From Candidatus Peribacteraceae bacterium (GTDB taxonomy: Bacteria; Patescibacteriota; Gracilibacteria; Peribacterales; Peribacteraceae), in contig JAQVMB010000003.1 in assembly GCA_028703835.1 (NCBI GenBank), positions 5,493 to 69,492 on the forward strand: DNA of 64,000 nt, in the 5' to 3' direction. The translations under genes were made by a program, and so were the position numbers. The notes beneath the pieces were generated by a model, which saw nothing but the letters and a program-made list of their open reading frames with translations, did not search any database and was not told where the DNA came from. Below, one piece after another: positions 529 to 54,733 of this stretch (positions within the stretch are counted from its first letter, which is position 1; the number at the start of each line of letters is the position of its first letter).

Positions 529-3066
529 TTATTCCATGATGCAGGGAACACCTCTTCCGCACGGAGAGGGGTTTTCCGCAACGGGATACGTGACGCTGCC
601 CTGCTCCTTCAGGTCCGAGAGCGCGTTGGCTTGCACCACGCCGTCACTGACGGTGTAGAGGCTCTCGCCGATGCGCGTGACGCGCTGGATGTCCTTGCCC
701 GTGCCGTACCAGTAATCGCCGGCTTTCACGTACTCCTCGTCCGTGTAATGCGTGATCCGTCCGCGCAGCGTGAAACCGCTGAGGAGCGAGATGCGGTACA
801 CGTACGCTCCCTGGAAGACGGGAGAGCCGTACGCGCTGTCGTTGCCGGGCGTCTTCTGGTCCGCCGGAATCTCGTACACCGTCACGGGGAAGCTGAGCAG
901 GCCGCGCTGCTTGTCGAAGAGGAGTGCCTTGTGGTTTTGCAGCAGAGGACTGTCCGTCCCGCGGTCCCCGATGCCGGTCTGGAACATCTCCTTCGGGTTC
1001 GCCACGTCCGTCACGTCGAAGATGGCCATCTTCATGCCCTGTTGCCAGGCGAACGTGCCGTCTTTGGATTCCACCGCTTCTTTGCCGAAGCCGATGATGT
1101 GGTTCTCGTCGTACGGGTGGAGGTAATCGCTGAAGCCCGGAATTTTCAGCTTGCCGAGGATGGCGGGATTGCGCGGATCCGAGGTATCGATGACGAAGAG
1201 GGGATCGATGGTGCGGAACGTCACCATGTAGGCGCGGTCGCCGAGGAAGCGCACGGCGTAGATGGTTTCCCCGGGTGCGATCTCTTCGATCTTGCCCACG
1301 TTCTCCAGCGACATGTTCATGATGTAGAGGTTGTTCGTGGAGGGGGAATTGCCGTTGTTCCAGGATCGGCCCTTCGTCGTGGCGATGCGGAACGTGTTCT
1401 CGTGCTCATCCATGGAGAACTGGTTGAGGATGTGGCCGGGAACGGAGCCCTGGCTCTGCAGCGTCACGCCGCCGTCCGTGAACCGGAAGCGGTACACGTT
1501 CGTCTTCTCTTCGCCGCCGCCCGTTCTGTCCCAGTGATACGTCCATTCGGGCGCCGCCACGAACAGGTTCTGCAGCGAGGCGTAGACGTTCTGCGCGTTG
1601 CCCAGCACCGTCGTGCGGGCCACGTCGCCCGTCGGCTTCGACACGTCGATCACGCCGACCGTGAGGTACTGCGGCGAGGGCACGTGCGGGAGGATCATCA
1701 CGTTCCCGCACCGGGTGACGGGTTGCGCCGCATCGCCCACCTTCGAGTCGGAAAACTGGGGGAGCACCGTGTCTTCCGTCGCTTGCGTGAGGGGTTGTGC
1801 GCCGTCGTACCAGCGCATCGGCTGGTTCACCACCAGGTAGAGTTTGTGGCCGATCATGCGCGTGGAGACGGACGACCCGTCGAAGGAGACCTTGCGTTCC
1901 AGCGTCGGCTTCGCGCGGTCCGACACGTCGTAGATGCGCGCCTGCGTGCGCTGCACGGAAGGGTAGTACGGATAAACGGACGGCATCATCTTGCCGTTCA
2001 TGATGCGCGGCGTTCCCTGCGCGGCCCATGCGTTGCCGATGACGACCAGGCGGTCGCCGTCGATGTACAAGTCTTGCGGGCTGAACGTGGAATCTTCGTC
2101 GAAGATCTCGCTCATTTTCCGCATGCCGTCGGCGGGCACCGCCTTCACGATGCGGACGGCGCCGCCCGAAACGATGTAGAGGTACGTGCCGTCCGTCTTG
2201 ACGATGTCCCCTTCGTCCACGCCCTCGGTCTGGACGTTCGTGCGCGCGTAATCGCCGTCATTCCCGGCTTTCGCCGCCGAGTCCGTCATGGGGGCGGCCG
2301 TCGGCACGGCCTCGTTCCGCATGAGTTCCGCAGGCCCTCCTCCCACGCCCCAGCCGCCGCCGCTGCGGCTGCCGGCTTCGCGCATGAACGCCTGCAGGTC
2401 GGTGCAGGAAGCGGCGGTCTGCACGGTGTCGGCGGACAGGTTCACGGTCATGTCGGGGTACTTCACGTTGAGGTAGCCTATCGACGGCTGGTCGGTGACG
2501 TTCTCCGAAAGCCGCCACATCATTTCCGCCATCTCGGCGCGCGTGATCTGCTTCGTGAGGCCGTTCATCGTCGGCGGAATGGCCTTGGAGCTTTCCAACG
2601 CGCGGACGAAGCCCTCGTACCATTCGACGCCCGCTTGCGGATCCTGCTTGTAGGCGACGGAAAAGATTTTTGCCGCCTCCGCGAACGTGACGGGTTTTTC
2701 CGGCCGGAAGAGGCCGTCGTCGTAGCCGGCGACGATGCCCTGCTCCTTTGCCGTGCAGACGTAGGGCGCGAACCACTGTTCCTGCACGTCGGGGAAGCAC
2801 TGTGACGCCCCGGCAATGTCTTCTTTCTTCGCTTCGAGGATGATCTTCAGGAGTTCGGCGCGGTTGATCGTGGCGTCCGGCTTGAAGGTGCCGTCGGCGT
2901 AGCCTTCGATCACGTTCTCGTTCTTGAGGGTGCCGATGGCGCGGGCGTACGGGGTGGACGACGAGACGTCGCGGAACGCACTCGACGCCGCGAAAGCGGG
3001 GGCAAGCTGCATGGACACGGCGAGACCGAGAGCCGTGAACACCAGCCATCGCATGGGATGTCGCAT
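529..3066 (-). CDS. secreted SLH-domain protein with C-terminal beta-propeller domain (S-layer associated)
   Basis: ORF 529..3096. The internal ATG at 3066 gives signal peptide MRHPMRWLVFTALGLAVSMQLAPAFA. SLH-like repeats are present (EGYADGTFKPDATINRAELLKIIL; AGYDDGLFRPEKPVTFAEAAKIF). TNVQTEGVDEGDIVKTDGTYLYIV and the following region resemble the secreted beta-propeller family (PF09826-like, from memory). Confidence 0.75.
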   Translation of the reverse strand: MRHPMRWLVFTALGLAVSMQLAPAFAASSAFRDVSSSTPYARAIGTLKNENVIEGYADGTFKPDATINRAELLKIILEAKKEDIAGASQCFPDVQEQWFAPYVCTAKEQGIVAGYDDGLFRPEKPVTFAEAAKIFSVAYKQDPQAGVEWYEGFVRALESSKAIPPTMNGLTKQITRAEMAEMMWRLSENVTDQPSIGYLNVKYPDMTVNLSADTVQTAASCTDLQAFMREAGSRSGGGWGVGGGPAELMRNEAVPTAAPMTDSAAKAGNDGDYARTNVQTEGVDEGDIVKTDGTYLYIVSGGAVRIVKAVPADGMRKMSEIFDEDSTFSPQDLYIDGDRLVVIGNAWAAQGTPRIMNGKMMPSVYPYYPSVQRTQARIYDVSDRAKPTLERKVSFDGSSVSTRMIGHKLYLVVNQPMRWYDGAQPLTQATEDTVLPQFSDSKVGDAAQPVTRCGNVMILPHVPSPQYLTVGVIDVSKPTGDVARTTVLGNAQNVYASLQNLFVAAPEWTYHWDRTGGGEEKTNVYRFRFTDGGVTLQSQGSVPGHILNQFSMDEHENTFRIATTKGRSWNNGNSPSTNNLYIMNMSLENVGKIEEIAPGETIYAVRFLGDRAYMVTFRTIDPLFVIDTSDPRNPAILGKLKIPGFSDYLHPYDENHIIGFGKEAVESKDGTFAWQQGMKMAIFDVTDVANPKEMFQTGIGDRGTDSPLLQNHKALLFDKQRGLLSFPVTVYEIPADQKTPGNDSAYGSPVFQGAYVYRISLLSGFTLRGRITHYTDEEYVKAGDYWYGTGKDIQRVTRIGESLYTVSDGVVQANALSDLKEQGSVTYPVAENPSPCGRGVPCIME

Positions 3067-3170
3067 AGTAAAAAGGGGGAAGACGGACGTTGTCACCCTA
3101 TCCTACGTGCGTGGACCTCATTCGTTACACGGTTTGGTGTTGACGAAAGAATCGGGCATTGAGTATCGCG

Positions 3171-3359
3171 GTCATTCCCTTTGGTTCGATACCCCGAAGC
3201 CTGCTTCGGTTCCTTGTTTTCCCGCGGGACCATGACGCTGTTTTCTACCCCACCCCGCTCCCCCGCGGCGGCGGGGTCGCACCCCTCCCCATGACGGGGA
3301 GGGGTTGGATGTTCTTTTGCCGCCGGATACTGCGGCAGCTTGCCGCGCGGTAGTTCATT
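3171..3359 (+). repeat. dispersed ~185-bp hairpin-rich repeat, copy 1
   Basis: About 90% identical by eye to 52881..53060 in the same orientation. Contains ccgaag-CCTG-cttcgg, the cccgcggg palindrome and cccctcccc-atgac-ggggagggg hairpins. Lies between two minus-strand genes. Confidence 0.8.
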
Positions 3360-3368
3360 GTCCGTTCG

Positions 3369-3935
3369 TCAGCGGTAGTACGTGGACGTCGTGGTTTGAG
3401 CGGAGGACTTGGCGTACGGCGTGGATGCGATGACGGTGCCGTCGAAGAGGACGTAATCCACGCTGCCGTCCAGGAACGTGTCGCCCTGCTTGCGTCCGTG
3501 GTCGCGGATGGTGAGGGACGTGAAGGGGCGTTTGGATCCGGCGCCCGTGACGGCGACGCGTCCGGCGCGGAGGAGCGGCTGGATGAGCTCCAGGACGTAG
3601 GCGTCATCGAGGGGCACTTCGGGGATGCGCGTGATGTCCACGTCGTCGTAGACGGTGATGCGGCGCTGGATCTTCGCGCTGAGTTCCCGGCCCGTGTATT
3701 TGTGGTTGCCGCGCGGGATGACCAACGCGAGGATGTCGCGGTACGCCATGGTGAGCACGGTCTTCTTGCTCTCGACGGTGTAGGAGACGCTCTTGCGCGG
3801 CAGGCGCCGCAGGAGCCTGACCGTTTCGGTGCGGTCCCACGAAACGACGGGCACCGCGGGTGCGTTGTCGGCGAGGGCGGCGGGTGCGGCCCAGGCAAGG
3901 AAGAGTGCGGCGAGGAGAGGGCGGAGGAGCGTCAT
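3369..3935 (-). CDS. hypothetical secreted protein
   Basis: 188-aa ORF with an ATG start and signal peptide MTLLRPLLAALFLAWAAPAALA. No family recognised. Confidence 0.6.
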   Translation of the reverse strand: MTLLRPLLAALFLAWAAPAALADNAPAVPVVSWDRTETVRLLRRLPRKSVSYTVESKKTVLTMAYRDILALVIPRGNHKYTGRELSAKIQRRITVYDDVDITRIPEVPLDDAYVLELIQPLLRAGRVAVTGAGSKRPFTSLTIRDHGRKQGDTFLDGSVDYVLFDGTVIASTPYAKSSAQTTTSTYYR

Positions 3936-3980
3936 GGGATGCGGAGAGAAAAGGGACGTACCATACGCCGTTCCTTGCCT

Positions 3981-4629
3981 TCAGGGAAGCGGCCGGTGCG
4001 GTTCGTTGGGGAAATCGGTCTCTTCACGGAAGATTTCCCGCCGCAGGCGTTGCACTTCCCGCAACGAGAAGTAGCGGATTTGGATCGCGTCCAGGTTCGA
4101 CAGTGTTCCGCTGTGCCCCACGGTCAGCAGGCGGAGCAGCTTGGCGCGGATGAGGGACGCATCGAACAGGGGATCGTCTTCCCATCCGTGCATGGATTCC
4201 CCTTGCAAGGCATCGTACAGGCGGCGGCGGGCGAGCATGCGCGCGTGTGAAGACCCGGTCGGGCAGCATGAGGCCCGCCTCGAACGCAATGTCGTCAATG
4301 TTCGGGAAGGTGTAGCGCAGGAATCGCGTTTCGTCCGCGATCCAACACGGAACCGGGCGTGTGCCGTCTTGTTCCCAAATGCGTGTATCCATTTCCCGCC
4401 TGCGCCAAACGCGGACGCCGATCAGGGCGGGCGGCGCGGCAACGTGGTGCGGGAGGATCACTTCCGGCGGTGCCGCATACAGGGAGGGCGGGACATGTCC
4501 CCTGCATGCGTACTGGACTTCCGCGCGCGCCCATTCTCCGATCAATATTGCAGCCGTTCCGGCATCGAGGCATTGCTCATGGACCCGCCTGAGCAGCACG
4601 TCATCGGAAGGATACGAAATATGATTCAT
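3981..4629 (-). pseudogene. hypothetical protein, apparently frameshifted
   Basis: Protein-like sequence starts in ORF 4024..4629 (MNHISYPSDDVLLRRVHEQCLD...IAFEAGLMLPDRVFT). It continues in ORF 3981..4298 (HARMLARRRLYDALQGESMHGWEDDPLFDASLIRAKLL...). The frames switch at a cgcgcg tract near 4239-4246. Confidence 0.45.
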
Positions 4630-4745
4630 TTGAATTAATTATACTCAACATGTCAAGTTTCAGTACAGGCTTCTTTCGGCAGGAAATCCTTGCCTCCTTC
4701 CTCTGATCGTAGAGAATGAGAAGATGCTTCTTTCCCCCTTTACCC

Positions 4746-4982
4746 ATGAGGCTCAACGCCATCGACTGGATCTCGCAGGTCCTCATCATCATCGGCGCCC
4801 TCAACTGGGGCATCGTCGGTCTGTTCGGGATTGACGTCGTCGCGTCCGCGCTCGGCGGATTCACGGTCGCCGCCCGGACGGTGTACGTCCTTGTCGGTAT
4901 CGCCGGCATCTACGAAATCATCTCGCTGGGATACAAAGCATCGGCGCGGGGAGTCCGCGATACGCGCGAAACGGCGCGCTGA
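4746..4982 (+). CDS. DUF378-family small membrane protein
   Basis: Internal ATG of ORF 4716..4982 gives MRLNAIDWISQVLIIIGALNWGIVGLFGIDVV..., containing the GALNWG.VG motif typical of DUF378. Confidence 0.75.
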   Translation: MRLNAIDWISQVLIIIGALNWGIVGLFGIDVVASALGGFTVAARTVYVLVGIAGIYEIISLGYKASARGVRDTRETAR

Positions 4983-5011
4983 GGCGGCCGCATCCGGCAC
5001 GGCGGGCGGCG

Positions 5012-5149
5012 TCACGACGGCGTCCGCTCGTCGTCCGCTGCCTTTCGTTCCCCGTTTTTCCGGGCGGCGTTGTCTTGTCCGTTCCGTGCGGCGTAGGCCA
5101 GAAGGCCTGCGACGGCCACGAGGAGGATGATGGTGCCGAGCAACGCCAT
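5012..5149 (-). CDS. candidate 45-aa single-TM micro-protein
   Basis: Own translation: MALLGTIILLVAVAGLLAYAARNGQDNAARKNGERKAADDERTPS. One hydrophobic helix plus a charged tail. Below the ORF-track size cutoff. Same strand as the sortase cluster. Confidence 0.3.
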   Translation of the reverse strand: MALLGTIILLVAVAGLLAYAARNGQDNAARKNGERKAADDERTPS

Positions 5150-5154
5150 GATGG

Positions 5155-5295
5155 TCAAGGAAGGGAAGGGAAGGAGCCCGACGCACGGCGGTGCCGCGGA
5201 TGGGCGTGGTGGTGTTTGAGCGCGTCGGCTATCGCGGCGCCGATGAGGACGGGACCGGCTGCGAAGACGATGAGGAGGACGGCGAGAGAATCCAT
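5155..5295 (-). CDS. candidate 46-aa single-TM micro-protein
   Basis: Own translation: MDSLAVLLIVFAAGPVLIGAAIADALKHHHAHPRHRRASGSFPSLP. Hydrophobic helix followed by a His/Arg-rich tail. Its stop lies 5 nt upstream of the next micro-ORF start. Confidence 0.3.
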   Translation of the reverse strand: MDSLAVLLIVFAAGPVLIGAAIADALKHHHAHPRHRRASGSFPSLP

Positions 5296-5408
5296 GGCGG
5301 GCAGGGAAGCCTGTTGTATTGACGGGTGTCTCCGCCTGTCATTACGAAGAGCGCCCCCGTTCGTTACGGAGGACGCTCCATTTTCCGCAGATTCTTTCCT
5401 CGCTGCCG

Positions 5409-5585
5409 TCAGCGTCCGGCCGTTGCGCCGAAGCCGCCGCCGGTCTCCGGCAGGCCGCCGGGAACCGAACTGTCCATCAGGGAACTGCTGGAACTCTCGT
5501 CGAGCTGTGCGAAGGCGGCGCCGCCCGCGAAGAGGAGGCCGGTAAGGCCGGCCACCAGCGCCAAGGAGAGCATCAGGTGCTTCAT
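5409..5585 (-). CDS. 58-aa secreted mini-protein carrying an LPETG motif
   Basis: Own translation: MKHLMLSLALVAGLTGLLFAGGAAFAQLDESSSSSLMDSSVPGGLPETGGGFGATAGR. It has a signal peptide ending AFA-Q and an LPETG motif. It lies 90 nt downstream of the sortase homologue on the same strand. Confidence 0.5.
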   Translation of the reverse strand: MKHLMLSLALVAGLTGLLFAGGAAFAQLDESSSSSLMDSSVPGGLPETGGGFGATAGR

Positions 5586-5675
5586 GGGTAAAATGGGGAA
5601 AGGATGATACCTATCACGACGTCCGATGGCCGTCGCCCTTTCGCGGATCCTGCCGAATTGCGATGTACTTTTCCC

Positions 5676-6389
5676 TCATTGCATCGTCGCATACACCACC
5701 AACCTGCGGTCGTAGTGTCCGATGCCCGTGTCCCACGTCCCGTCGCACGTGATGAGGTGCAGGCCGGCGACGGAGGGGTCACCGCGGTAAATCCGTCGTA
5801 TCGGCGCGTCCTTGACGTGGTAGGACTCCGCAACGGTGACGAGGAACGTCCGCTCCCGCCCCTCGGCGTCCGTAACGACGATCGCGTCGCCGGTGCGGAG
5901 ATCCCGCAGGCGCCAGAACACCGCCGGTCCGCCCGCGGTATCGAGCACGCCGTCCATGACGGACGTCCCTTTCTCGCCGGGTTTCCTGCTGCCGCTGAAC
6001 CATCCCGCGCGATACGGGCTGGTCGGGACGCCGGGCTTCTTCCCGTCCGGCGTCAAGCCCACGGTTTCCACGGCCGTATCGAGGCCGATGGCGGGGATGC
6101 GCAGGCGGACGGGTGCGGCGGGGGGAAATGATTCCGCATGCGTGGTGGGGACCAATCCGATGGCATTTCGTTCGGGCGCCGCGGTTTGCGACGACGCCGA
6201 AGGTACGTCCGCTGCCGGCGGGTGCGGCGCCGTCTCCTCCCGTTCCCGCGTGAGGCTCACCGAGGCGTGTGGCGGGACGGATGACGCGGCGTGCATGGCG
6301 AGGCGCTGCATGCTCGGCGGAGCCTGCACGTCGGGAATCCACGCATAGGCGAGGATGGCGGCGCTTAGGAAAAGGGTGGGTCGCAACAA
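5676..6389 (-). CDS. membrane-anchored sortase homologue (class F-like)
   Basis: 237-aa ORF with a TTG start and N-terminal TM anchor. PVRLRIPAIGLD...GPAVFWRLRDLRTGDAIVV...LHLITCDG...YDRRLVVYA matches the class F sortase layout, with the Cys in LITC and the Arg retained. Confidence 0.75.
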   Translation of the reverse strand: MLRPTLFLSAAILAYAWIPDVQAPPSMQRLAMHAASSVPPHASVSLTREREETAPHPPAADVPSASSQTAAPERNAIGLVPTTHAESFPPAAPVRLRIPAIGLDTAVETVGLTPDGKKPGVPTSPYRAGWFSGSRKPGEKGTSVMDGVLDTAGGPAVFWRLRDLRTGDAIVVTDAEGRERTFLVTVAESYHVKDAPIRRIYRGDPSVAGLHLITCDGTWDTGIGHYDRRLVVYATMQ

Positions 6390-6542
6390 GGGAGCCGGGG
6401 CCGGGGTGCGGACACTCTAGGGAAGCCGCCGCCTCCGATGCACGGAAATTCCGGAAGAAATCATGAATCGTCAAACACAGTCCGTACACGGAAGTCTGGA
6501 CACACTGGACAAGATGGGTATCATCGCGTCTCTTCATCTTCC

Positions 6543-6963
6543 ATGCGACGCATTCTTCTCCTCGATGACGACTGTTCCATCCTCGAATCCGTCGGGACGA
6601 TGCTCCGGGAGGACCTGGACGCGGACGCCGGAGGAAGCCATCGACATCCTGCGGCGGCAATTTCTATCCCGTATGTCCGATGCGGGACTCAACGCATTCA
6701 TTGCGGATTTCCGGCTGGAACCGACGGGGACCATCACGTCACTCGAAGTATTCGAAGTGGTGCAAAGCATTGCGCCCCGCGATTTCGTGCGGTCACGGTC
6801 CGCTCTCTGCACCAGTGAGGAAGAACCGGCATTGAGGATTCTGTTCGAAACGAGACGGCTGTTGTTCCCCGGCAGGTTTCTCTCCAAGGCCAGACTGATC
6901 GACCTCCGCACGTTCGTACGTTCCGTACCGGATGACAATATGAGAGCTTCGCCCGGACCGTGA
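6543..6963 (+). pseudogene. receiver (REC) domain protein, apparently frameshifted
   Basis: MRRILLLDDDCSILESVGTMLREDLDADA is read from the ATG at 6543 in the ORF 6438..6818 frame. It continues as TPEEAIDILRRQFLSRMSDAGLNAFIADFRLEPTGTITSLEVFEVV... in the ORF 6463..6963 frame. The frame switch is near 6618-6630. Confidence 0.55.
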
Positions 6964-7073
6964 AGAATGATTGTTTCATACGTTTCCGCGCGTTTGTGCA
7001 GTTGAGAATTCCCCGAAGGGCGGGGAAAATGACGGGAAAGCCCCTTCGGGCCATCTCTCTTCCCCCTACCCGT

Positions 7074-7274
7074 ATGAAGATTCTGCAGAATCTCGTCATG
7101 CTTCTCCTCATCGTCGGAGGGCTTAACTGGGGCCTTGTCGGCCTCTGGAATTACGACCTCGTCGTGGAGCTCCTCGGTTCCATGCCCTCGGTCGTGACCG
7201 CCGTGTATGCGCTCGTCGGCCTCGCCGCGGTGCTGGCCGTCGTGCCGTACGTCACGAAATTGGTGCGCAAGTGA
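7074..7274 (+). CDS. DUF378-family small membrane protein (second copy)
   Basis: Internal ATG of ORF 6960..7274 gives MKILQNLVMLLLIVGGLNWGLVGLWNYDLV... Confidence 0.75.
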   Translation: MKILQNLVMLLLIVGGLNWGLVGLWNYDLVVELLGSMPSVVTAVYALVGLAAVLAVVPYVTKLVRK

Positions 7275-7292
7275 TACTCCGTTTCATCGGAA

Positions 7293-7322
7293 GACCGCTC
7301 CTGCAATCGGGGCGGTTTTTTT
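7293..7322 (+). terminator. putative intrinsic terminator
   Basis: gaccgc..(loop)..gcggt stem followed by a T7 run, 19 nt after the DUF378 stop. Confidence 0.45.
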
Positions 7323-7421
7323 GGACGGTCAGTTGTTTCGAACGTCGTGCCCGGTGGCGGAGAGCACATCCCGGCACAGTTGCGCGACTTCCGTGACCTC
7401 ATCGATGATCGCGGGGTCCCG

Positions 7422-7565
7422 CTACATCGCCGCTTCCATGCGCTCGATGAGGTCGTCCGGCGGCGGAACGCCCGTGTTCATTGATTCCGCATATGCGGCG
7501 ATGTCCTCGTCGGTGACGCCCGTGCGGGCGCGGAAATTGTCGGTGTCGGGGGGCAGTGAGACCAT
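7422..7565 (-). CDS. small acidic hypothetical protein
   Basis: MVSLPPDTDNFRARTGVTDEDIAAYAESMNTGVPPPDDLIERMEAAM. This is the protein-like C-terminal part of ORF 7422..7703. It may be the tail of a decayed larger gene. Confidence 0.25.
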   Translation of the reverse strand: MVSLPPDTDNFRARTGVTDEDIAAYAESMNTGVPPPDDLIERMEAAM

Positions 7566-7599
7566 GGGGGCGGGGGTGAGGACGAAGCAGAATGCACTG

Positions 7600-7839
7600 T
7601 CAATTGGCGCTCGGATGTCGTTCCGGGTGCAGCGTCGGTTCTTCGAGGGCAAGCAGCTGTTCCACGAACGCGCGGACATTCGGATCCGCACGCATGGATT
7701 CATCCACCCGTTTGGCTGCTTCCAGTTCCCGGAGGGTCCCGTCGCGCGTCAGGCGCACGTGCAAGTAATCGGCGACGTCATCCGGATGCACGTCCGGCGG
7801 GCCGGGAGGGAGAGGTGCGGTCATCGGGACAGTATACAT
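7600..7839 (-). CDS. small hypothetical protein
   Basis: 79-aa ORF with an ATG start: ...DVADYLHVRLTRDGTLRELEAAKRVDESMRADPNVRAFVEQLLALEE. Overlaps the next ORF in another frame, so a frameshift is possible. Confidence 0.3.
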   Translation of the reverse strand: MYTVPMTAPLPPGPPDVHPDDVADYLHVRLTRDGTLRELEAAKRVDESMRADPNVRAFVEQLLALEEPTLHPERHPSAN

Positions 7840-7872
7840 GAAATCCGCTTCCGTGTCAGTGCTTTTCGCCTT

Positions 7873-8136
7873 TCACGGGCACCGGAAAGCGCACGCGAAG
7901 CATCCCGCCACGCTCATGCCATCTACGCACTCCTTTTCATCCCGGGATGCCTTGGCGGTGAGGTTGGCACAGTTCTGCAATCCACCTTCTTTCAGTCGAA
8001 CCTGCTCGCACACTTCGGCCGGATCGCGCGTGTCGGCCACGAAGTCTCCCTGCGGGACGGAGCGGAGCACGATACGTGAGGAGGAGCAGGCGGTGAGGAG
8101 CGAGACGGAGGCGAGGGCGAGGAGGAAAAACTTCAT
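7873..8136 (-). CDS. small Cys-rich lipoprotein
   Basis: Internal ATG of ORF 7873..8241 gives MKFFLLALASVSLLTAC-SSS, containing a lipobox. The mature part has 6 Cys. Confidence 0.6.
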   Translation of the reverse strand: MKFFLLALASVSLLTACSSSRIVLRSVPQGDFVADTRDPAEVCEQVRLKEGGLQNCANLTAKASRDEKECVDGMSVAGCFACAFRCP

Positions 8137-8239
8137 GGGCGCAAGTGTACGCCTGACATTTTCGCATGACGAAGGACTATATGATAGGTGTCGTTGGTCG
8201 CTGCTTGCGTGACGCTTCCTACAGGGACAAAATGAAGAC

Positions 8240-8650
8240 ATGAATGAGAAGCGTTGTGTTCTGGTTGTGGAAGATGATGACGAGTTTCAGGAAATCCTGG
8301 TGGAAGGTCTTGGCAAGCGATTGCACGAAATGAGAATAGTGGTTGCTGCTACAGTTGAAGACGCCGTTGATGCGTTTCAGTCACAACCGAACTGCGCGGT
8401 GGTTCTTGACTACGACAACGGCGTGACAGGAAATCTTAACTACCTGCCCTTCTATCTGTGGCTGGAGCAGACGGCGCCGGATTTCGCTCGCGACCGCGTC
8501 ATCCTCCATACGGTACGATATCGCGATGAGATGCGGGAGATCTTTGAAGCGGCGCACACGAAATTCTTTCCCGCCTATGCCCATAAAGGAAAGATCGATC
8601 AACTCGCGACGTTCATCCAATCGTTGCCGCCGTTGTCGGAGAAGGAATAG
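8240..8650 (+). CDS. stand-alone receiver (REC) domain protein
   Basis: VLVVEDDDEFQEIL...AVVLDYDN...ILHTV...AHKGK gives the acidic pocket, phospho-acceptor Asp, and Thr and Lys at the expected spacing. GC is visibly lower than in neighbouring genes. Confidence 0.7.
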   Translation: MNEKRCVLVVEDDDEFQEILVEGLGKRLHEMRIVVAATVEDAVDAFQSQPNCAVVLDYDNGVTGNLNYLPFYLWLEQTAPDFARDRVILHTVRYRDEMREIFEAAHTKFFPAYAHKGKIDQLATFIQSLPPLSEKE

Positions 8651-8800
8651 TGATAGAACACAGGGTCAGTCTTCGAGGCTCCTTGCTCCGCAAGGAGAAC
8701 CTCAGGCTGACACGACACTTTGACTGAGCGCTATTGAAAGATAGTCGCGAAGGCAGGCTGTGCCTGCCTGGAGCGACACCTTGAAGGGAAGGGTTTATCA

Positions 8801-10481: not shown

Positions 10482-10536
10482 GGTTCTGGATGGGGAAAGA
10501 AATGGTGAAGCGGCGGCCGTTCCCGGCCGCCGGATA

Positions 10537-19454: not shown

Positions 19455-21131
19455 CTAATACACCATTTTCAGATAGCAGGATTCACAGTAGACGATCTCC
19501 GGTCTTTCCGGGGCGTAGTTCGTGCTGATGGCCGCGTTGCACCGGGCGCAGTTCCTCTGCCAGAGTTTCCGTGGATTTCGCAGTGCCATGCGGTCAGCAT
19601 GCCGTTGGTCGGGGCATCGGCGCGGGACGGGGAGGCCCATCGTGCGGTAGAACTTCAATTCCTGCGGGATGATCTTGAACGGTCTGCCTGTGGACTCGCA
19701 GATCAGGATCCGGTCGCAGATGTCGTCGGGAACGTCCCTGATTGCGGCGGGGACCGGGACGGGCGGCCCTTTGTATGATTCCTTCTTTTCCTGCGGTTCG
19801 TTGTACCAGTTCCATCCCTGCTTCTTCGCTTCTTCCTCCGTGAGCGGGAAATTCTCCTGCGCCAGCGTCTCGTTGTAGCCCATGTAAGAAAGATGCGGTT
19901 GCAGGTAATCGCCCCACTCGCCGGTCTTGCGCATGTGTTCAATGATGCGCGGCACGAGCGCTTCATACTCTTCCTTCGTGTACTGCTTGTTCAGGATGCA
20001 GTACTTCTTGCGTCGCATGCTGATGCAGCCGAAGACATTCTGGCAATGGTGAATTTCGCGGCTGTAGTAGTTGTCGCTACCGTACCAGCAGAGGAACGTA
20101 CCCATCGTTCGCTGTCCGCCGACGGTCGATCCCACATTGAAGCTGAACTCGATGCCGTCAGGTGCCGTGTAGTTTCCGTCCTGGCTGTACTTGCTCTTCG
20201 GCGAGTTCCACAGGTACGTGCAATCCTCGCATGCGGTGCAGTCAAACGTGTACTTGCAGTTCTTGCTGTTGAAGACCATGTCTCCCGTACAGTCCTCGCT
20301 GCCCAGGGTATGCGCTGCACGATGGGGGAGCGGCTTCTTCAACTCTTCGAACTTCTCACGCAGGAGGCGCATCTTTTCGGGCGTGAAGGGGCGCAGTTCT
20401 GCCAGACGCTTCTCATATTCTTCTTTGCTGAGAGGTTTGTTCAGGAAGCAGTATTCCTTGTTCTGCAGGCCGAAGCACAGAAAGCAGTTCTTGCACGACT
20501 GGCAATCTTCCACCATGAGGCAGTCGGTACAGTTGCGGCAGTTCATGAAGTGGAAGCATTGATAGCACTGTTGCGACGCGATGCCCTCGTAGCACCACTC
20601 GCAGGAGTAGAGCGACAGGCCGTCCACGACATCTTTGGAATCGATCACGAAGCGACCGTAGAGGCAGTTCTCGGCATTGGTGATGCCGGCGACGAGGTAG
20701 CAGTCGCGGCAGTTGAGGGAGTGGTTGGTGTAGTAGCTGTTCTGTTCGTTGGTGGTGAAGAGCGACTGGTGCGGGACCGCCAAACCCAGTGCGGCGAATT
20801 GTTCCGAGAAAGTCTCGTTGAAGTCGAAGGGGCGACCGTACGACAGCTCGTCCCACCTGTCGCTCCAGAACTCCTCCTGGTCGTAGACCTTGTACGGTTT
20901 GTCCGGAGCGTAGATGGAAACGATCTGCTTGCCGGAGAGATCGGATTTCCGGTGGTAGAGGTTCAGGTCGTTGCGGAAGGCAAGACGTCGGCGAAAGCGG
21001 CAGTCCGGGCAGAATACCGGCGGTGGGATCTGCTCCTTCTTGCCGTTGAAGACAGGGGAGACCGTGTCGTAAAACACGAGGTCATTCGGAGTGATCTCAA
21101 AGGCAGCCGAGCATTGTTTGCAGGTGGCCAT
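19455..21131 (-). CDS. Cys-rich zinc-ribbon paralogue A (unnamed family)
   Basis: ORF 19455..21239. The internal ATG at 21131 (MATCKQCSAAFEITPNDLVFY...) aligns with its sisters and overlaps the upstream stop by 1 nt (TAATG). About 35 Cys by hand count. Ends ...NCARCNAAISTNYAPERPEIVYCESCYLKMVY. Confidence 0.85.
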   Translation of the reverse strand: MATCKQCSAAFEITPNDLVFYDTVSPVFNGKKEQIPPPVFCPDCRFRRRLAFRNDLNLYHRKSDLSGKQIVSIYAPDKPYKVYDQEEFWSDRWDELSYGRPFDFNETFSEQFAALGLAVPHQSLFTTNEQNSYYTNHSLNCRDCYLVAGITNAENCLYGRFVIDSKDVVDGLSLYSCEWCYEGIASQQCYQCFHFMNCRNCTDCLMVEDCQSCKNCFLCFGLQNKEYCFLNKPLSKEEYEKRLAELRPFTPEKMRLLREKFEELKKPLPHRAAHTLGSEDCTGDMVFNSKNCKYTFDCTACEDCTYLWNSPKSKYSQDGNYTAPDGIEFSFNVGSTVGGQRTMGTFLCWYGSDNYYSREIHHCQNVFGCISMRRKKYCILNKQYTKEEYEALVPRIIEHMRKTGEWGDYLQPHLSYMGYNETLAQENFPLTEEEAKKQGWNWYNEPQEKKESYKGPPVPVPAAIRDVPDDICDRILICESTGRPFKIIPQELKFYRTMGLPVPRRCPDQRHADRMALRNPRKLWQRNCARCNAAISTNYAPERPEIVYCESCYLKMVY

Positions 21132-22819
21132 TAGTAGACGGAAGCGAGGTAACACTCTTCGCAGTAGACGATCTCGGAACGGTCGGGAGCGTAGGTTGTC
21201 CGCATCTCTTTGCTGCAGTTCATGCACGGACGAAGCCACAGCTGGCGGGGATTGCGGAGGGCAAGCCGCAGGTCGTAACGCACGTCAGGATGGAGGCGAG
21301 GAACGGGTAATCGCTGCTTCCTATAGAAGTCCAGTTCCTGCTTCGTCACTTTGAACGGACGCTTTGTTATGTCGCATTCGATGGCCCAGTTCGTTATGTC
21401 ATCGGGAATGTCATCGATGAAGTCGGGCAGGCGGGAAGCCGGGATGGTTTTCGCTACCTGCAATTGCTTCTCCTCGCTATCACGCCAATAAAAGCCCCGA
21501 GTGAGAGCTTCCTCTTTCGTCAGCGGCAGGTATTCCCCCGCGAGTGATTCGTTGTAACCGAAGGCGGAGAGTGCCGGCGGGAAGAATTTTCCCCATTCTT
21601 CCGTTCTCTTCATCTTCTCGATGATCTTGGGCACGAGCGACTCATACTCGCTCTTTGAATACTGTTTGTTCAGGATGCAGTACTGCTTGTGGCGCAGCGC
21701 GACGCAGCCGAAGCAGTCATGACAGTTGAAGCAGTATTCGCAATAGAGAAGGTTCTGGCTGTGGAAGACGTATAGACAGTAGGCCGTGCTGTAGGTCTCG
21801 ATCGTTCCGAGCGTTTCGTACGCAAGCTCTGGTTTGACGTACATGTTCGAGCAGTCGTAGTTGTCCTTTACCCCAACGCCCACGGTCACGTAGCGGCTGT
21901 CCTGGCTGTCGTTCACGTCGTAGCAGTCCAAACAACGTTGCGAATTCTCGATGTAATCACCGCTGCACACCTCGCTGTTCACGATGTTCGAGCCGCGATG
22001 GATGGTTGTCTGCCGCAAGGCAGCGAGTTTCCGCTTCAGCTCTTCCGACCGCGCATGGAACCCGCGCACTTCCCGGACTTTCCTCTCGTATTCTTCTCTC
22101 GGCAGGGGCTTGTTTTCAAAGTGATATTCCTTCTGCCGCAAGTTGCTGCAGAGGAAGCAGTTGCTGCATCCTACGAGGTTGAGGGACCAGGAACAGTCGC
22201 GGCAATTCTTGCTGAACGAGACGTGGTTGCAGTTATAGGAGTCATACACCGAGAAGCATTCGTAGCAGAGCTCGGAGTTGTAGAGGTAGGAGCAATCCAC
22301 CGAGCTCTTGCAGCTTTGGTAGAGCTTTCCATAGTAACAATCCTCGCAGTACTCCGAGGAGTTGATGAGGTAACAGTTTTTGCAGTAGGCGGTCCCTGCT
22401 GAAAAATCTGAATTCTCATTCTGCAGAATCATCATGCCGAGGCGCGGCGCATCTTTATGGAGAGCGGCAAACTGCGGGAAGAAAGGTTTGCCGAAGTCGT
22501 ACGGCCGTCCCAGTTCCGTGTTATCGAGCTTGTCGTCATAGAACTCATCGGAGGTGTAGACCTTGTCGGGCTTTCCCCACAGGGGAATCTCATGGAACGT
22601 CGAAACCATGTCTTTGCCCGAGAGCGTGGAAGAACGTTTATAGAAGCTGCGCTCGTTGCGGTGACAGGTGCGGATCCGCAGCCGACACTCCGGACAGAAG
22701 ACTGGCAGTGGCGGATGAATGGCTTGTTCCCCGAACGTAAACGTCATCTTCTGAACGAATGTTTCTTCGTCAGGAGCAATGGCGAACGGCGCCTGACAAC
22801 GAAGACACGTCTTCTGCAT
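21131..22819 (-). CDS. Cys-rich zinc-ribbon paralogue B
   Basis: 562 aa. Starts MQKTCLRCQAPFAIAPDEE... and ends ...CMNCSKEMRTTYAPDRSEIVYCEECYLASVY. Its start is 4 nt downstream of the stop of C. Confidence 0.85.
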   Translation of the reverse strand: MQKTCLRCQAPFAIAPDEETFVQKMTFTFGEQAIHPPLPVFCPECRLRIRTCHRNERSFYKRSSTLSGKDMVSTFHEIPLWGKPDKVYTSDEFYDDKLDNTELGRPYDFGKPFFPQFAALHKDAPRLGMMILQNENSDFSAGTAYCKNCYLINSSEYCEDCYYGKLYQSCKSSVDCSYLYNSELCYECFSVYDSYNCNHVSFSKNCRDCSWSLNLVGCSNCFLCSNLRQKEYHFENKPLPREEYERKVREVRGFHARSEELKRKLAALRQTTIHRGSNIVNSEVCSGDYIENSQRCLDCYDVNDSQDSRYVTVGVGVKDNYDCSNMYVKPELAYETLGTIETYSTAYCLYVFHSQNLLYCEYCFNCHDCFGCVALRHKQYCILNKQYSKSEYESLVPKIIEKMKRTEEWGKFFPPALSAFGYNESLAGEYLPLTKEEALTRGFYWRDSEEKQLQVAKTIPASRLPDFIDDIPDDITNWAIECDITKRPFKVTKQELDFYRKQRLPVPRLHPDVRYDLRLALRNPRQLWLRPCMNCSKEMRTTYAPDRSEIVYCEECYLASVY

Positions 22820-22823
22820 ACGT

Positions 22824-24503
22824 TCAATATACTTCCTTCAGATAGCATTCTTCGCAATAGACCTTTTCCGGCCGTTCGGGGGCGTAGGTCGTCTGCATCT
22901 CCTTTCCGCAATGCATGCACTTCCTTCCCCAAAGCGTGCGGGGATTGCGCCGGAGCATCCTCCGACGGTGTCGTTCGTCGGGATGGAAATGAGGAAGGGG
23001 GAATCCGCGTTCTCGGTAGAACTCCAGTTCCTTCTTCACGATTCTGAACGGGCGGTTTGTTGCTTCGCACTTGATTGCCCACTGGAGAATGTCGTCAGGT
23101 ACCTGCGTGATATCCGTCGGCAGCGTCGAGGCTGCGATGATTTTCTTCACGTCCGGCAATTCCGTTTCTTCCTCGCGCCACGGCCAGCCGCGGCTCTTCG
23201 ACTCCATTTCCGTAAGCGGGAAATACTGCTGCGCCGTCGTTTCGTTGTAGGCGAACGGTGAGATTCCTGCAGGAAAGAATTCTCCCCATTCTTGCGTTGA
23301 TCGCATGTGTTCGATCACTGTCGGTACGAGCGATTCATACTCTTCCTTCGTGTATTGCTTGTTCAGGATGCAGTGCTTCCCGGGCTTCATGGAGACGCAA
23401 CCGCACATGTGTGATCCAGACTGGACGATGTCGCAGTAGAGCAGGTGCTTGCTGCCCCAGGAGCCGTGCGTAAAGATGGCGTTGTAAGAGCCGTAGCCGA
23501 GGCTGAGCGATTCGTACCCTAGCTGGGCGTCCGTGGTGTGGCAGACATCCAATAGGTCTTTGATCTGAAAGCCGGTGAAAATGTTTGCACAGTCTTCGCC
23601 GTACGAAACGTCGAAGCAGTTCTGCAGGTTCCGCGAGTTCTTCAGGTAGTCGCCCGTCACGTTCTCGCAGCTCACTACTTCGCGCGCCCGATGGATGCTC
23701 TGCTCTTTGAAGCGGGAGAATTCTTGCCGCATCTTCGGCAGCCCGCCCTTTGCCATTTCTTGAAGCAGCGCGCGCTTCTCTTTCGCGTACTCTGCGGGAG
23801 TGAACGGCTTGTTGCGGATGTGGAAGCGTTTGTTGCGAAGATTGACGGAGAAGAGGCAGTCTGCGCAGCCTTTGCAGTCGAAGAGGAACATGCTGTCCGA
23901 GCAGTTGGTGCAGTTTTGGGAGAACGACACGGTGTGGCACTTGTCGACGTCGGTCACTTCGAAGCAGTACTGCGACTCCGTGCAGTCTCCGGCGTCGATG
24001 CAGCCCGTCGACTTGATGACCTGGTAGCCGTAGAGGCAGTCTTCGTTGAACTCCGCGGCGAAGAGCAGGTAGCAGTTCTTGTTGGAGCCGGAGAGATTGA
24101 TGAATTCCGAGTTCTCGTTATTCACCACGTTGAGCGCGAGGCGCGGAACGACGTTCTGCAGCTCATTGATCTGCGGGAAGAACGGACGGTTGAAATCGAC
24201 ATTCCGCCCGAAGCTGCGCGGGTCCCACTTGTCCGACCACCAGCACTCCGTGCAGTAGACGGGGAATGCGCTCTTCGTCGGGTAGACGGAGATGATGGAC
24301 TTCTTGCACGCGTCACAGGTGCGGCGGTACAGCGTCCGCTCGTTACGCCAGAAGAGCCTTCGCTGCTGACGGCAGTCGGGGCAGAGCGTGGGCGCAGGGA
24401 TCTCGAAGCGCTTGCCGCCGAACTCGGGCGCCATCTTGGCACGGAGCTCTTCTTCGAGCGGAGTGACGGTGAAGGCCGAGGAGCATTGCTTGCAGGTTGG
24501 CAT
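22824..24503 (-). CDS. Cys-rich zinc-ribbon paralogue C
   Basis: ORF 22824..24602, read from the internal ATG at 24503 (MPTCKQCSSAFTVTPLEE...). Ends ...CMHCGKEMQTTYAPERPEKVYCEECYLKEVY. Confidence 0.85.
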   Translation of the reverse strand: MPTCKQCSSAFTVTPLEEELRAKMAPEFGGKRFEIPAPTLCPDCRQQRRLFWRNERTLYRRTCDACKKSIISVYPTKSAFPVYCTECWWSDKWDPRSFGRNVDFNRPFFPQINELQNVVPRLALNVVNNENSEFINLSGSNKNCYLLFAAEFNEDCLYGYQVIKSTGCIDAGDCTESQYCFEVTDVDKCHTVSFSQNCTNCSDSMFLFDCKGCADCLFSVNLRNKRFHIRNKPFTPAEYAKEKRALLQEMAKGGLPKMRQEFSRFKEQSIHRAREVVSCENVTGDYLKNSRNLQNCFDVSYGEDCANIFTGFQIKDLLDVCHTTDAQLGYESLSLGYGSYNAIFTHGSWGSKHLLYCDIVQSGSHMCGCVSMKPGKHCILNKQYTKEEYESLVPTVIEHMRSTQEWGEFFPAGISPFAYNETTAQQYFPLTEMESKSRGWPWREEETELPDVKKIIAASTLPTDITQVPDDILQWAIKCEATNRPFRIVKKELEFYRERGFPLPHFHPDERHRRRMLRRNPRTLWGRKCMHCGKEMQTTYAPERPEKVYCEECYLKEVY

Positions 24504-24617
24504 CCAGCCCACTGTACGGCCGGATATGCCGTCATACAATTGTCGCATGAGGGTTTCCGATTTTGCCCTGGCAGAAGAGCCGTTCGTGAACCCGATATTC
24601 ACGCGCCACTGTGAAGA

Positions 24618-25406: not shown

Positions 25407-25433
25407 GGAAGAGGCAGTATAGCTCAGTTGGCT

Positions 25434-27122: not shown

Positions 27123-27229
27123 GGATGGAACGTTGGGAAGTGTTTGCAGATGCGGAAAATGCCGGATGCAAGTGAATATTCTCCCCATCCGCTGTCTGCT
27201 GCTTACTGTCGCCGCTATCATGACCGTCC

Positions 27230-29136: not shown

Positions 29137-29172
29137 GGCCACAAGTGTACCAAACTTACCTTTCGTTCACTA

Positions 29173-54703: not shown

Positions 54704-54733
54704 CGATTGGGCCAGCGAAATCCGGACGCGTCG

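What the first reader, a model, noticed from the sequence alone, without database searches (positions are those of the whole stretch)
5012..6389. Sortase homologue apparently lacking the catalytic His, followed by an LPETG mini-peptide and two micro-TM ORFs
Seen in sequence:
- The 237-aa membrane-anchored protein follows the class F sortase layout: PVRLRIPAIGLD, GPAVFWRLRDLRTGD, LITC, YDRRLVVYA.
- Where class F sortases have ...AVIAGHVD..GPAVF (as I remember the consensus), it reads SVMDGVLDTAGGPAVF. That puts Val at the catalytic His position.
- Ninety nt downstream is an unannotated 58-aa ORF. It has a signal peptide, and its mature 32-aa part is QLDESSSSSLMDSSVPGGLPETGGGFGATAGR.
- That ORF has an LPETG motif but no hydrophobic/charged sorting tail.
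- Two further micro-ORFs follow on the same strand, of 46 and 45 aa. Each is a single hydrophobic helix plus a basic tail. That is the part a canonical cell-wall sorting signal would need.

Inference: three readings are possible.
- A degenerate sortase/substrate pair.
- A non-canonical system in which a tiny LPETG peptide is processed or ligated.
- A substrate gene that has been broken up.
Basis: partly seen in the sequence, partly recalled or inferred. Interest (0 to 1): 0.7.

Follow-up and report, generated by a model that had tools for sequence, protein, structure and literature searches.

The report
His-less sortase with tail-less LPETG mini-protein
A groundwater bacterium (Candidatus Peribacteraceae) keeps, under selection, a sortase-type surface-anchoring enzyme that lacks the histidine all known sortases use. 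Next to it sits a tiny secreted LPETG protein from a previously undescribed family whose sorting signal has no membrane-spanning tail.

Summary
On the minus strand lie a 237-aa sortase homologue (5676-6389), a 58-aa signal-peptide/LPETG ORF (5409-5585) and two micro single-helix ORFs (5155-5295, 5012-5149).

- **His loss.** The sortase has Val148 where 188 of 192 closest relatives have the catalytic His. The only other exceptions are two further Ca. Peribacteraceae lineages, which use different Val codons. Cys215, Arg229 and 28-30 of 32 highly conserved positions are kept, so this is an old, selected change, not decay.
- **The LPETG ORF is not a broken gene.** Five other contigs carry the same kind of small Ser/Thr/Gly-rich secreted protein ending in PGLPxTGGG plus 3-9 residues. 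None has a membrane helix. Each lies directly beside one or two related His-containing sortases. A Patescibacteria relative has the same protein with a full tail.
- **The micro-ORFs are a separate unit.** The tandem pair recurs, in the same order, at the sortase locus of the other two His-less genomes, which lack an LPETG ORF nearby. They are independent small membrane proteins, not sorting-signal fragments.

Best reading: a non-canonical sortase/substrate module. How catalysis proceeds without the His is unresolved. Clade-specific His84 and Tyr201 are candidate replacements; a non-catalytic binding role is the alternative.

The parts
5676..6389 (-). Class-F-type sortase homologue, 237 aa, lacking the catalytic His. 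It has an N-terminal signal-anchor (residues 1-23, ...VQA|PP, with Pro at +1), a variable linker, and a catalytic domain from about residue 93 to 237.
   Evidence: Pfam PF04203 E=6.9e-18. NCBIfam class F 124.7 bits, below the 166 cut-off. AlphaFold model of residues 79-237 has pLDDT 95. Foldseek probability 1.0 to solved sortases. Orthologues P0002 and P0050 lie in syntenic loci.
5946..5948 (-). Codon GTG = Val148, at the position of the catalytic His.
   Evidence: The column is H in 188 of 192 relatives and V only in the Peribacteraceae trio. Codons are GTG/GTA/GTT in the three lineages. The column aligns to the catalytic His of T. fusca SrtE.
5745..5747 (-). Codon TGC = Cys215 of the I-T-C motif (catalytic Cys retained).
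   Evidence: Invariant in 192 of 192 sequences.
5703..5705 (-). Codon AGG = Arg229 of H-Y-D-R-R-L-V-V (catalytic Arg retained).
   Evidence: R in 150 of 192 relatives and in all type-2 relatives. Aligns to the Arg of SrtE.
6132..6149 (-). Clade-specific N-terminal motif P81-T-T-H84-A-E86 ([VT]-P-x-T-H-A-[EQ]), placed 10 residues before strand beta1. It is a candidate lid-like or pseudo-substrate segment, or a relocated His.
   Evidence: Present at identical spacing in all three His-less proteins despite otherwise unalignable linkers. His84 is trio-specific. Block 79-88 has pLDDT 79 in the truncated model.
5787..5789 (-). Codon TAC = Tyr201. It replaces a Phe that is 96% conserved in relatives, and is the second trio-specific change inside the catalytic domain.
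5409..5585 (-). 58-aa secreted mini-protein: signal peptide (MKH...AFA|Q), then a 32-aa Ser/Gly/acidic mature part, QLDESSSSSLMDSSVPGGLPETGGGFGATAGR. LPETG is at 5439-5453. There is no hydrophobic tail.
   Evidence: ORF. GC3 0.86 in this frame. GenBank hypothetical PHW10_01175. Homologous tail-less mini-proteins lie beside related sortases.
5593..5603 (-). Pyrimidine-rich leader CCTTTCCCCAT, 7 nt before the mini-protein ATG.
   Evidence: The only other exact match to the searched pattern in the 64-kb window (TCTTTCCCCAT) lies 8 nt before the groEL ATG. Mini-protein genes in L042-L045 have similar CU-rich leaders.
5155..5295 (-). Micro membrane protein A, 46 aa: N-terminal helix plus a His/Arg-rich tail.
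   Evidence: One of only two such ORFs in the window. Positional counterparts are L001 9168-9266 and L038 9665-9781.
5012..5149 (-). Micro membrane protein B, 45 aa: starts MALL..., then a helix plus a mixed-charge tail.
   Evidence: Counterparts L001 9342-9431 (MAILL...) and L038 9798-9920 (MALLS...) are likewise second in the pair.
4716..4982 (+). DUF378 small membrane protein. It is a conserved neighbour of the sortase in all three genomes; a second copy lies at 6960-7274 (+).
   Evidence: Pfam PF04070 E=1.3e-18 and 2.6e-16. Synteny.
529..3096 (-). 855-aa SLH + beta-propeller envelope protein, a conserved syntenic neighbour. It has no LPXTG ending and is not a predicted sortase substrate.
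   Evidence: Pfam SLH and Beta_propel. 62-63% identical orthologues in L001 and L038.

Best explanation
The locus is a working cell-envelope module of a Candidatus Peribacteraceae bacterium. It is built on a subfamily of class-F-type sortases whose natural partner is a small, Lys-free, Ser/Thr/Gly-rich secreted protein ending in PGLPxTGGG plus a few residues, that is, a sorting signal without the usual membrane helix.

Proposed mechanism:
- The 58-aa protein is exported by Sec. (Inferred from its signal peptide.)
- Its LPETG is captured by the membrane-tethered sortase. (Shown: conserved gene adjacency across six loci. Inferred: binding.)
- The sortase's signal peptide probably stays uncleaved, because Pro follows the AXA site. 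(Inferred.)
- The sortase attacks through Cys215 with help from Arg229, giving a thioacyl intermediate that passes the 22-residue peptide QLDE...LPET to an envelope acceptor. (Inferred.)

In the Peribacteraceae lineage the canonical general acid/base His has been replaced by Val. I think it most likely that catalysis persists, perhaps slowly, with another group taking that role. The candidates are the two other clade-specific changes: Tyr201 (Phe in relatives) and His84 of a conserved N-terminal VPxTH segment. This step is inferred and not tested.

The two micro-helix proteins are separate, conserved small membrane proteins that travel with this sortase. They may act on its membrane anchor, by analogy only with actinobacterial SafA.
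For: - His-to-Val is shared by three lineages with different Val codons.
- Cys, Arg and 28-30 of 32 positions that are at least 90% conserved are retained; bona fide relatives average 31, minimum 27.
- Only three trio-specific changes exist: H148V, F201Y and gain of H84 in a motif with fixed spacing.
- Six tail-less mini-proteins each sit beside type-2 sortases. A full-tail version lies 2 nt upstream of a sortase in a Patescibacteria MAG.
- Other class F loci also put their LPXTG substrate next to the sortase.
- LPETG is unlikely by chance, about 0.003.
- The mini-protein gene shares its leader motif with groEL.
- Codon-position GC fits coding on the minus strand.
- The micro-helix ORF pair is locus-specific in three genomes.
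- No other sortase is present in the 64-kb window. No second sortase from the 1.38-Mb contig of P0002 appeared among the hits (weak evidence).
Against: - Reviews state that all sortases carry a His-Cys-Arg triad (PMC8225981). From my own knowledge, His mutants of S. aureus SrtA are essentially inactive, so a dead enzyme is a serious alternative.
- The other two His-less genomes have no LPXTG mini-protein within 10 kb.
- No coordinates were available, so the distances from His84 or Tyr201 to Cys215 are unknown.
- His225, shared with His-containing relatives, sits at the far end of the beta7-beta8 hairpin in the model's strand register and is an unlikely substitute.
- The three His-less proteins are not robustly monophyletic in a neighbour-joining tree (19 of 100 bootstraps), although shared motifs and synteny argue for one origin.
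- There is no expression or biochemical data.
Confidence: 0.4

Rival explanations
1. Pseudo-sortase. The His-less protein no longer catalyses transpeptidation. It is kept as a membrane-tethered LPXTG-binding or scaffolding protein, for example holding the mini-protein at the surface, or forming a long-lived thioester adduct that itself serves as the anchor.
For: - The residue regarded as universal in sortases is missing (PMC8225981).
- Related modules usually contain two sortase paralogues (L042, L044, L045 and the P0195 contig). The window's protein descends from the 'type 2' paralogue, so a division of labour could predate the loss.
- Two of the three His-less loci lack a nearby LPXTG gene.
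Against: - Cys215 and Arg229 are retained in all three lineages at about 50% overall divergence. Pure binding would not need the Cys.
- It appears to be the only sortase at hand (weak evidence).
- F201Y and the gained His84 look like compensation rather than abandonment.
Confidence: 0.3
2. Degenerating remnant: a sortase and its substrate both on the way to loss in a reduced genome.
For: - His is lost and the sorting tail is missing.
- The sortase scores below the NCBIfam class F cut-off.
- The sortase is only 46-52% identical between genomes whose GroEL is 85-92% identical.
Against: - All ORFs are intact in three lineages.
- Conserved-position retention equals that of bona fide sortases.
- Synonymous variation at the Val codon.
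- The tail-less ending is conserved in six independent mini-proteins beside His-containing sortases, so it is not a truncation.
Confidence: 0.07
3. Fragmented substrate gene: the LPETG ORF and the two helix-plus-basic-tail ORFs are pieces of one former LPXTG protein.
For: Together the pieces would supply motif, helix and basic tail, and they lie on the same strand.
Against: - The frames differ and 113 nt separate them. Read-through gives about 50 charged residues before any helix.
- The micro-ORF pair exists without any LPETG ORF in L001 and L038, upstream of the sortase.
- Tail-less mini-proteins exist without micro-ORFs in L042-L045.
Confidence: 0.02
4. The small ORFs are not translated, and the LPETG is a coincidence in a GC-rich intergenic region.
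For: - GC-rich DNA yields many open frames.
- A word-based search of 5.8 billion proteins with the 58-aa ORF alone found only itself.
- There is no expression data.
Against: - A profile search and neighbour inspection found five homologues with the same architecture and position.
- groEL-type leader motif.
- GC3 of 0.76-0.86 in frame.
- The micro-helix ORFs are unique in six-frame scans and recur at the locus in three genomes, against a background of about 1 per 40 kb in unrelated loci.
Confidence: 0.05

Closest known systems
Class F sortases (NCBIfam NF033748; the characterised example is the Cutibacterium/Propionibacterium acnes housekeeping sortase, which recognises LPXTG, as cited in PMC8225981)
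   Same: Best-matching sortase class. Same domain layout and motifs: PVRLRIP, GPAVFW, LITC, YDRRLVVYA. Same N-terminal membrane tether. As in many class F loci, an LPXTG gene lies adjacent.
   Different: The catalytic His is replaced by Val. The score is below the curated family cut-off. There is a clade-specific N-terminal VPxTH motif and an F201Y change. The partner protein lacks the hydrophobic part of the sorting signal.
Canonical LPXTG cell-wall sorting signal proteins (TIGR01167-type: LPXTG, hydrophobic helix, basic tail)
   Same: N-terminal signal peptide. LPETG near the C terminus. A terminal Arg. Adjacency to a sortase. A close relative (P0196) has the full signal.
   Different: Only 3-9 residues follow LPxTG and there is no membrane helix. 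The protein is very small (25-89 mature residues), low-complexity and Lys-free. No curated NCBIfam or Pfam model matches it.
SafA, the 52-aa sortase-associated membrane protein of Actinobacteria (PMC9282373)
   Same: A very small single-helix membrane protein encoded right beside a sortase whose N-terminal signal peptide must stay uncleaved.
   Different: There is no sequence similarity and no FPW motif. SafA is N-in/C-out with an exoplasmic motif. Here the helix starts at the N terminus and the charged tail predicts the opposite topology. Here there are two (or three) such genes. No function has been tested.
Lid of class C (pilin) sortases
   Same: From my own knowledge, a conserved short motif in the segment just N-terminal to beta1 reaches into the active site. 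The VPxTH motif sits 10 residues before beta1. Lid-bearing sortases are among the top Foldseek hits.
   Different: The motif differs (DP[WFY] in class C). Contact with the active site was not shown here. There is no pilin-type substrate: the mini-proteins contain no Lys.

Membership tests
Sortase superfamily (Pfam PF04203, MEROPS C60) | Sortase beta-barrel domain | tested here: met
   Pfam E=6.9e-18, covering 124 of 125 profile positions. AlphaFold model pLDDT 95. Foldseek probability 1.0 to many solved sortases.
Sortase superfamily (Pfam PF04203, MEROPS C60) | Catalytic Cys in a TLxTC-type motif | tested here: met
   L-I-T-C215, invariant in 192 of 192 sequences.
Sortase superfamily (Pfam PF04203, MEROPS C60) | Catalytic Arg on beta8 | tested here: met
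   Arg229 in YDRRLVV. It aligns to the Arg of T. fusca SrtE.
Sortase superfamily (Pfam PF04203, MEROPS C60) | Catalytic His at the end of beta4 | tested here: not met
   Val148 stands where 188 of 192 relatives, and solved SrtE, have His. There is no other His in that segment.
Sortase superfamily (Pfam PF04203, MEROPS C60) | Transpeptidase activity on an LPXTG-type motif | not testable with these tools
   Needs an enzyme assay.
Class F sortase (NCBIfam NF033748) | Score at or above the curated cut-off (166 bits) | tested here: not met
   124.7 bits. It is still far the best class: class E scores 25.1 bits. NCBI names the orthologue P0002 'class F sortase'.
LPXTG cell-wall sorting signal substrate | N-terminal signal peptide and an LPXTG motif near the C terminus | tested here: met
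   MKHLMLSLALVAGLTGLLFAGGAAFA|Q..., with LPETG at residues 45-49 of 58. The signal peptide was judged by inspection only.
LPXTG cell-wall sorting signal substrate | Hydrophobic membrane-spanning segment after the motif | tested here: not met
   Only GGFGATAGR follows. The same holds in five homologues.
LPXTG cell-wall sorting signal substrate | Positively charged C-terminal tail | tested here: inconclusive
   A single terminal Arg in four of the six family members. L042 ends RGL and P0195 ends AAAQ.
SafA (sortase-associated factor A) | Small single-helix protein encoded next to the sortase | tested here: met
SafA (sortase-associated factor A) | Conserved exoplasmic FPW motif and N-in/C-out topology (PMC9282373) | tested here: not met
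   None of the seven micro-ORFs has FPW. The helix is at the N terminus and the charged tail at the C terminus. Topology itself is only predicted.

The most novel reading that the evidence does not exclude
A sortase lineage has rebuilt its active site. The universal beta4 His is gone, and its role is supplied either by a His on an N-terminal, substrate-like VPxTH segment (lid-like) or by a new Tyr in the beta6/beta7 region. This enzyme serves a previously unrecognised type of sortase substrate: tiny, Lys-free, Ser/Thr-rich secreted peptides whose sorting signal ends a few residues after LPxTGGG, with no membrane helix. Similar short endings beside class F sortases of Dormibacterota and Anaerolineales (L015, L035, L010) hint that tail-less signals may be widespread.
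Probability: 0.2. Interest if true: 0.8.

Novelty: new variant of a known kind. Interest (0 to 1): 0.62.

Why it matters
Sortases are textbook His-Cys-Arg enzymes and widely used protein-ligation tools.

- A naturally selected His-less sortase would either reveal an alternative catalytic solution, of interest for mechanism and engineering, or be the first clear pseudo-sortase.
- The tail-less LPxTGGG mini-proteins challenge the rule that sortase substrates need a membrane-retention helix. They point to an unstudied surface decoration in Patescibacteria/Peribacteria, whose envelopes and cell-cell attachment are poorly understood.
- The recurrent micro membrane proteins add candidates to the very short list of known sortase accessory factors.

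Tried and rejected
- **Alternative genetic code.** I asked whether TGA could be a sense codon (code 25), since Peribacteria are related to Gracilibacteria. Both the sortase and the 58-aa ORF end in TGA, and the two are in the same frame. Rejected: GroEL, the 855-aa SLH protein and the sortase are intact under code 11. The sortase ends where its homologues end. Read-through adds only charged residues and further stops.
- **Frameshift joining LPETG to a micro-helix.** Rejected.
- **Asp146 or His225 as compensating residues.** Both are already present in the nearest His-containing relatives (DGH..., GHYD[KR]R). His225 lies at the far tip of the beta7-beta8 hairpin by strand register.
- **Scan of GTDB species genomes with the two-sequence alignment.** It returned 32 class F loci, all with His, and no further His-less member.
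- **Degenerate DNA pattern for G-[hydrophobic]-[hydrophobic]-D-x3-GPAVFW on JGI metagenomes.** It found only the P0002 contig plus two chance hits.
- **Word-based protein search with the 58-aa ORF alone.** It found only itself. Homologues emerged only from reading the neighbourhoods of related sortases and from a four-sequence profile.
- **Search for canonical LPXTG + helix + basic-tail ORFs.** None in the window or in L001 and L038.
- **Neighbour-joining tree.** It did not resolve monophyly of the His-less trio.
- **Literature searches for His-less or pseudo-sortases.** Nothing found. The Peribacteria genome paper mentions only 'a sortase A'.
- **Rfam.** No RNA family in the region.
- **Terminator scan.** No terminator-like site on the minus strand between the four ORFs.
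- **Model coordinates.** They are not returned by the structure tool, so active-site distances could not be measured.
Full report
**What is there**

The window is GC-rich (60%). It comes from a Candidatus Peribacteraceae MAG: the 58-aa ORF is GenBank PHW10_01175, and a Logan contig is 100% identical over window positions 3287-8773. On the minus strand between 5012 and 6389 lie four ORFs:
- a 237-aa sortase homologue (5676-6389);
- after 90 nt, a 58-aa ORF (5409-5585);
- after 113 nt, a 46-aa ORF (5155-5295);
- after 5 nt, a 45-aa ORF (5012-5149).

All four have the codon-position GC pattern of real genes in this window: GC3 0.76-0.86 and GC2 lowest. No terminator-like site separates them on that strand.

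**The sortase and its missing His**

Pfam calls a full-length Sortase domain (E=6.9e-18). NCBIfam's class F model is by far the best class, at 124.7 bits against a 166 cut-off. AlphaFold models are confident (pLDDT 95 for residues 79-237). Foldseek matches solved sortases at probability 1.0.

In alignments with the closest relatives from a 5.8-billion-protein index and from an exhaustive 1.84-billion-representative HMMER search, the column after the invariant Gly147 is His in 188 of 192 sequences. It is Val in four: the window protein, its identical copy P0001, P0002 and P0050. A family profile aligned to solved structures puts this column on the catalytic His of Thermobifida fusca SrtE, and the ITC and YDRR motifs on its Cys and Arg.

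P0002 and P0050 are also Peribacteraceae. They sit in the same neighbourhood: groES-groEL, small ORFs, sortase, DUF378, SLH/beta-propeller protein. The three proteins are only 46-52% identical, while GroEL is 85-92% identical. They use GTG, GTA and GTT for the Val. They keep 28-30 of the 32 positions that are at least 90% conserved in relatives (relatives: mean 31, minimum 27). The loss is therefore old and the protein remains under purifying selection. It is neither a sequencing error nor a decaying gene.

Only three changes are specific to the trio:
- His148 to Val;
- Phe201 to Tyr (Phe in 96% of relatives);
- a His at position 84, inside a motif [VT]-P-x-T-H-A-[EQ]. The motif is held exactly 10 residues before strand beta1, although the surrounding linkers differ in length from about 15 to about 60 residues.

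Asp146 and His225, which I first suspected of compensating, are already present in the nearest His-containing relatives. All three proteins also have Pro directly after the AXA-like end of the N-terminal hydrophobic segment (VQA|P, VEA|P, VVA|P). From general knowledge of signal peptidase I, this should block cleavage and leave the segment as a membrane tether.

**The LPETG mini-protein is a member of a family**

Searched alone, the 58-aa ORF found only itself. I then read the neighbourhoods of the closest His-containing sortases. This showed the same kind of gene directly beside them:
- L042, 65 aa, ending ...STPGLPDTGRGL;
- L043, 97 aa, ending ...RRPGLPNTGGGGMAAYVR;
- L044, 112 aa, ending ...GTPGLPATGGGGAAHLR.

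A four-sequence profile then recovered two more:
- P0194, 88 aa, ending ...LPGLPNTGGGWGGR;
- P0195, 93 aa, ending ...GTPGLPNTGGGAAAQ.

Each of these is immediately followed by two sortase genes.

All six proteins share these features:
- a signal peptide ending A|Q;
- a mature part that is 42-65% Ser+Thr+Gly;
- no Lys and no Cys;
- only 3-9 residues after LPxTG, with no hydrophobic helix.

P0196, from a Patescibacteria MAG, is the same kind of protein with a full helix and an RTRKVA tail. It lies 2 nt upstream of a His-containing sortase. Other class F loci likewise carry their canonical LPNTG substrate next to the sortase.

The window's mini-protein is therefore the cognate partner of this sortase subfamily, and its short tail is a conserved trait, not a truncation. 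No curated Pfam or NCBIfam model covers it.

Two further points support expression:
- LP.TG would arise by chance in 58 residues with probability about 0.003.
- Its ATG is preceded at 7 nt by CCTTTCCCCAT. The only other exact match to the searched pattern in the window (TCTTTCCCCAT) lies 8 nt before the groEL ATG. The mini-protein genes in L042-L045 have similar pyrimidine-rich leaders.

**The micro-ORFs**

I used a simple rule: ATG, a helix of about 19 residues within the first 8 positions, then a charged tail, with total length 25-65 aa. Applied to all six frames, it finds:
- exactly two ORFs in the 64-kb window, the two in question;
- exactly two in the 20.7-kb L001;
- three in the 20.6-kb L038.

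All lie within about 1 kb of the sortase, on its strand. Unrelated class F loci give scattered singles at about one per 40 kb, and L042-L045 give none apart from a mini-protein signal peptide. In each genome the second ORF of the tandem pair begins MA[IL]L.

In L001 and L038 the pair lies upstream of the sortase and no LPETG ORF is present within 10 kb. The micro-ORFs are therefore a conserved, independent unit linked to the His-less sortase locus. They are not the missing half of a sorting signal.

The only known precedent for a tiny membrane protein encoded beside a sortase is actinobacterial SafA, which shields the sortase signal peptide from signal peptidase (PMC9282373). The resemblance is positional only: there is no FPW motif and the predicted topology is opposite.

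**How it most likely works**

Shown:
- the gene set;
- its conservation and linkage;
- the His loss, with retention of Cys and Arg.

Inferred:
- The mini-protein is exported and its LPETG is engaged by the tethered sortase.
- Cys215 forms a thioacyl intermediate.
- The short Ser-rich peptide is passed to an envelope acceptor.

Reviews state that all sortases use His-Cys-Arg (PMC8225981). Either another group replaces the His, or the protein has become a non-catalytic LPXTG binder. I favour retained catalysis (about 0.4) over a pseudo-sortase (about 0.3), for three reasons:
- the nucleophile and Arg are kept;
- it seems to be the only sortase available (weak evidence);
- the two accompanying clade-specific changes look compensatory.

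The VPxTH motif resembles the substrate motif, with Pro at position 2, Thr at position 4 and His where Gly would be. It lies where class C sortases carry their active-site lid (my recollection, not tested). It is modelled with intermediate confidence (pLDDT 79), which suggests it packs on the domain. The tools do not return coordinates, so none of this geometry could be checked.

**Comparison and novelty**

By fold, motifs and best-scoring model this is a class-F-type sortase. It fails one defining feature of the superfamily (the catalytic His) and the curated class F score. I file it as a divergent relative that probably works like a sortase, not as a regular member. The mini-protein meets two of the features of an LPXTG sorting signal and fails the hydrophobic segment.

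I found no literature on His-less sortases and no curated family for tail-less LPxTGGG mini-proteins. Similar short endings beside class F sortases in Dormibacterota and Anaerolineales suggest the phenomenon may be broader.

Verdict: a real feature and a new variant of a known kind, with moderately high interest. The central biochemical question remains open.

Noticed in passing
window 3171-3359 and 52881-53060: A repeat of about 190 nt, 94-96% identical, containing the hairpin CCCCTCCCCATGACGGGGAGGGG. One copy lies in the 5' region of the SLH/beta-propeller gene. The other lies between an ECF-type sigma factor gene (51524-52846) and a DUF5667 gene (53127-54488). It may be a shared regulatory or leader element for envelope genes.
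   Followed up: partly
window-wide, e.g. 10490-10500, 5593-5603; L038 6741-6780; L042-L045 upstream of the mini-protein genes: Genes here lack Shine-Dalgarno sequences. Many, including groEL, have pyrimidine-rich CTTTCC-type leaders 5-20 nt before the start codon. The pattern YYTTTCCCCAT with at most 1 mismatch occurs 10 times against 2.9 expected. This may be an unusual translation-initiation signal in Peribacteria.
   Followed up: partly
L015 4817-6184, L035 2-388, L010 6036-7115: Larger proteins encoded next to class F sortases of Dormibacterota and Anaerolineales also end a few residues after an LPXTG-like motif, with no membrane helix...KAKLPGTGHPPTYK*...SLPDTGFGG*...KIAETGYGGMAR*. Tail-less sorting signals may not be limited to the mini-protein family.
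   Followed up: partly
window 19455-29142 (- strand): Five tandem paralogous genes (594, 562, 592, 595 and 551 aa) with conserved 3' ends. The C termini resemble a treble-clef zinc finger. Function is unknown.
   Followed up: no
window 54653-58024 (+): A 1123-aa ORF built from tandem repeats of about 81 aa (243 nt), with recurring ...DSxINAGSxNNxGIxQ... units. No Pfam match. Probably a large surface protein.
   Followed up: no
L042, L044, L045 and the contig of P0195: The mini-protein modules of the His-containing relatives usually carry two divergent sortase paralogues: type 1 with AGH...YSDRLVV and type 2 with DGH...HYDxRLVV. The Peribacteraceae loci keep only the type 2 paralogue.
   Followed up: partly
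window 3369-3935 (-) and L038 10928-11464: A conserved secreted protein of about 180-190 aa with no Pfam match (40% identical between genomes). It lies between the sortase cluster and the SLH/beta-propeller gene.
   Followed up: no
window 6390-6425; L038 and L001 upstream of the sortase: A conserved sequence, TTCCCTAG(A/T)GTGTCCGC...CCCCGGC, lies 5-35 nt upstream of the sortase start in the window and L038, with a looser version in L001. It supports the TTG start at 6389 and may be a promoter or leader element.
   Followed up: no
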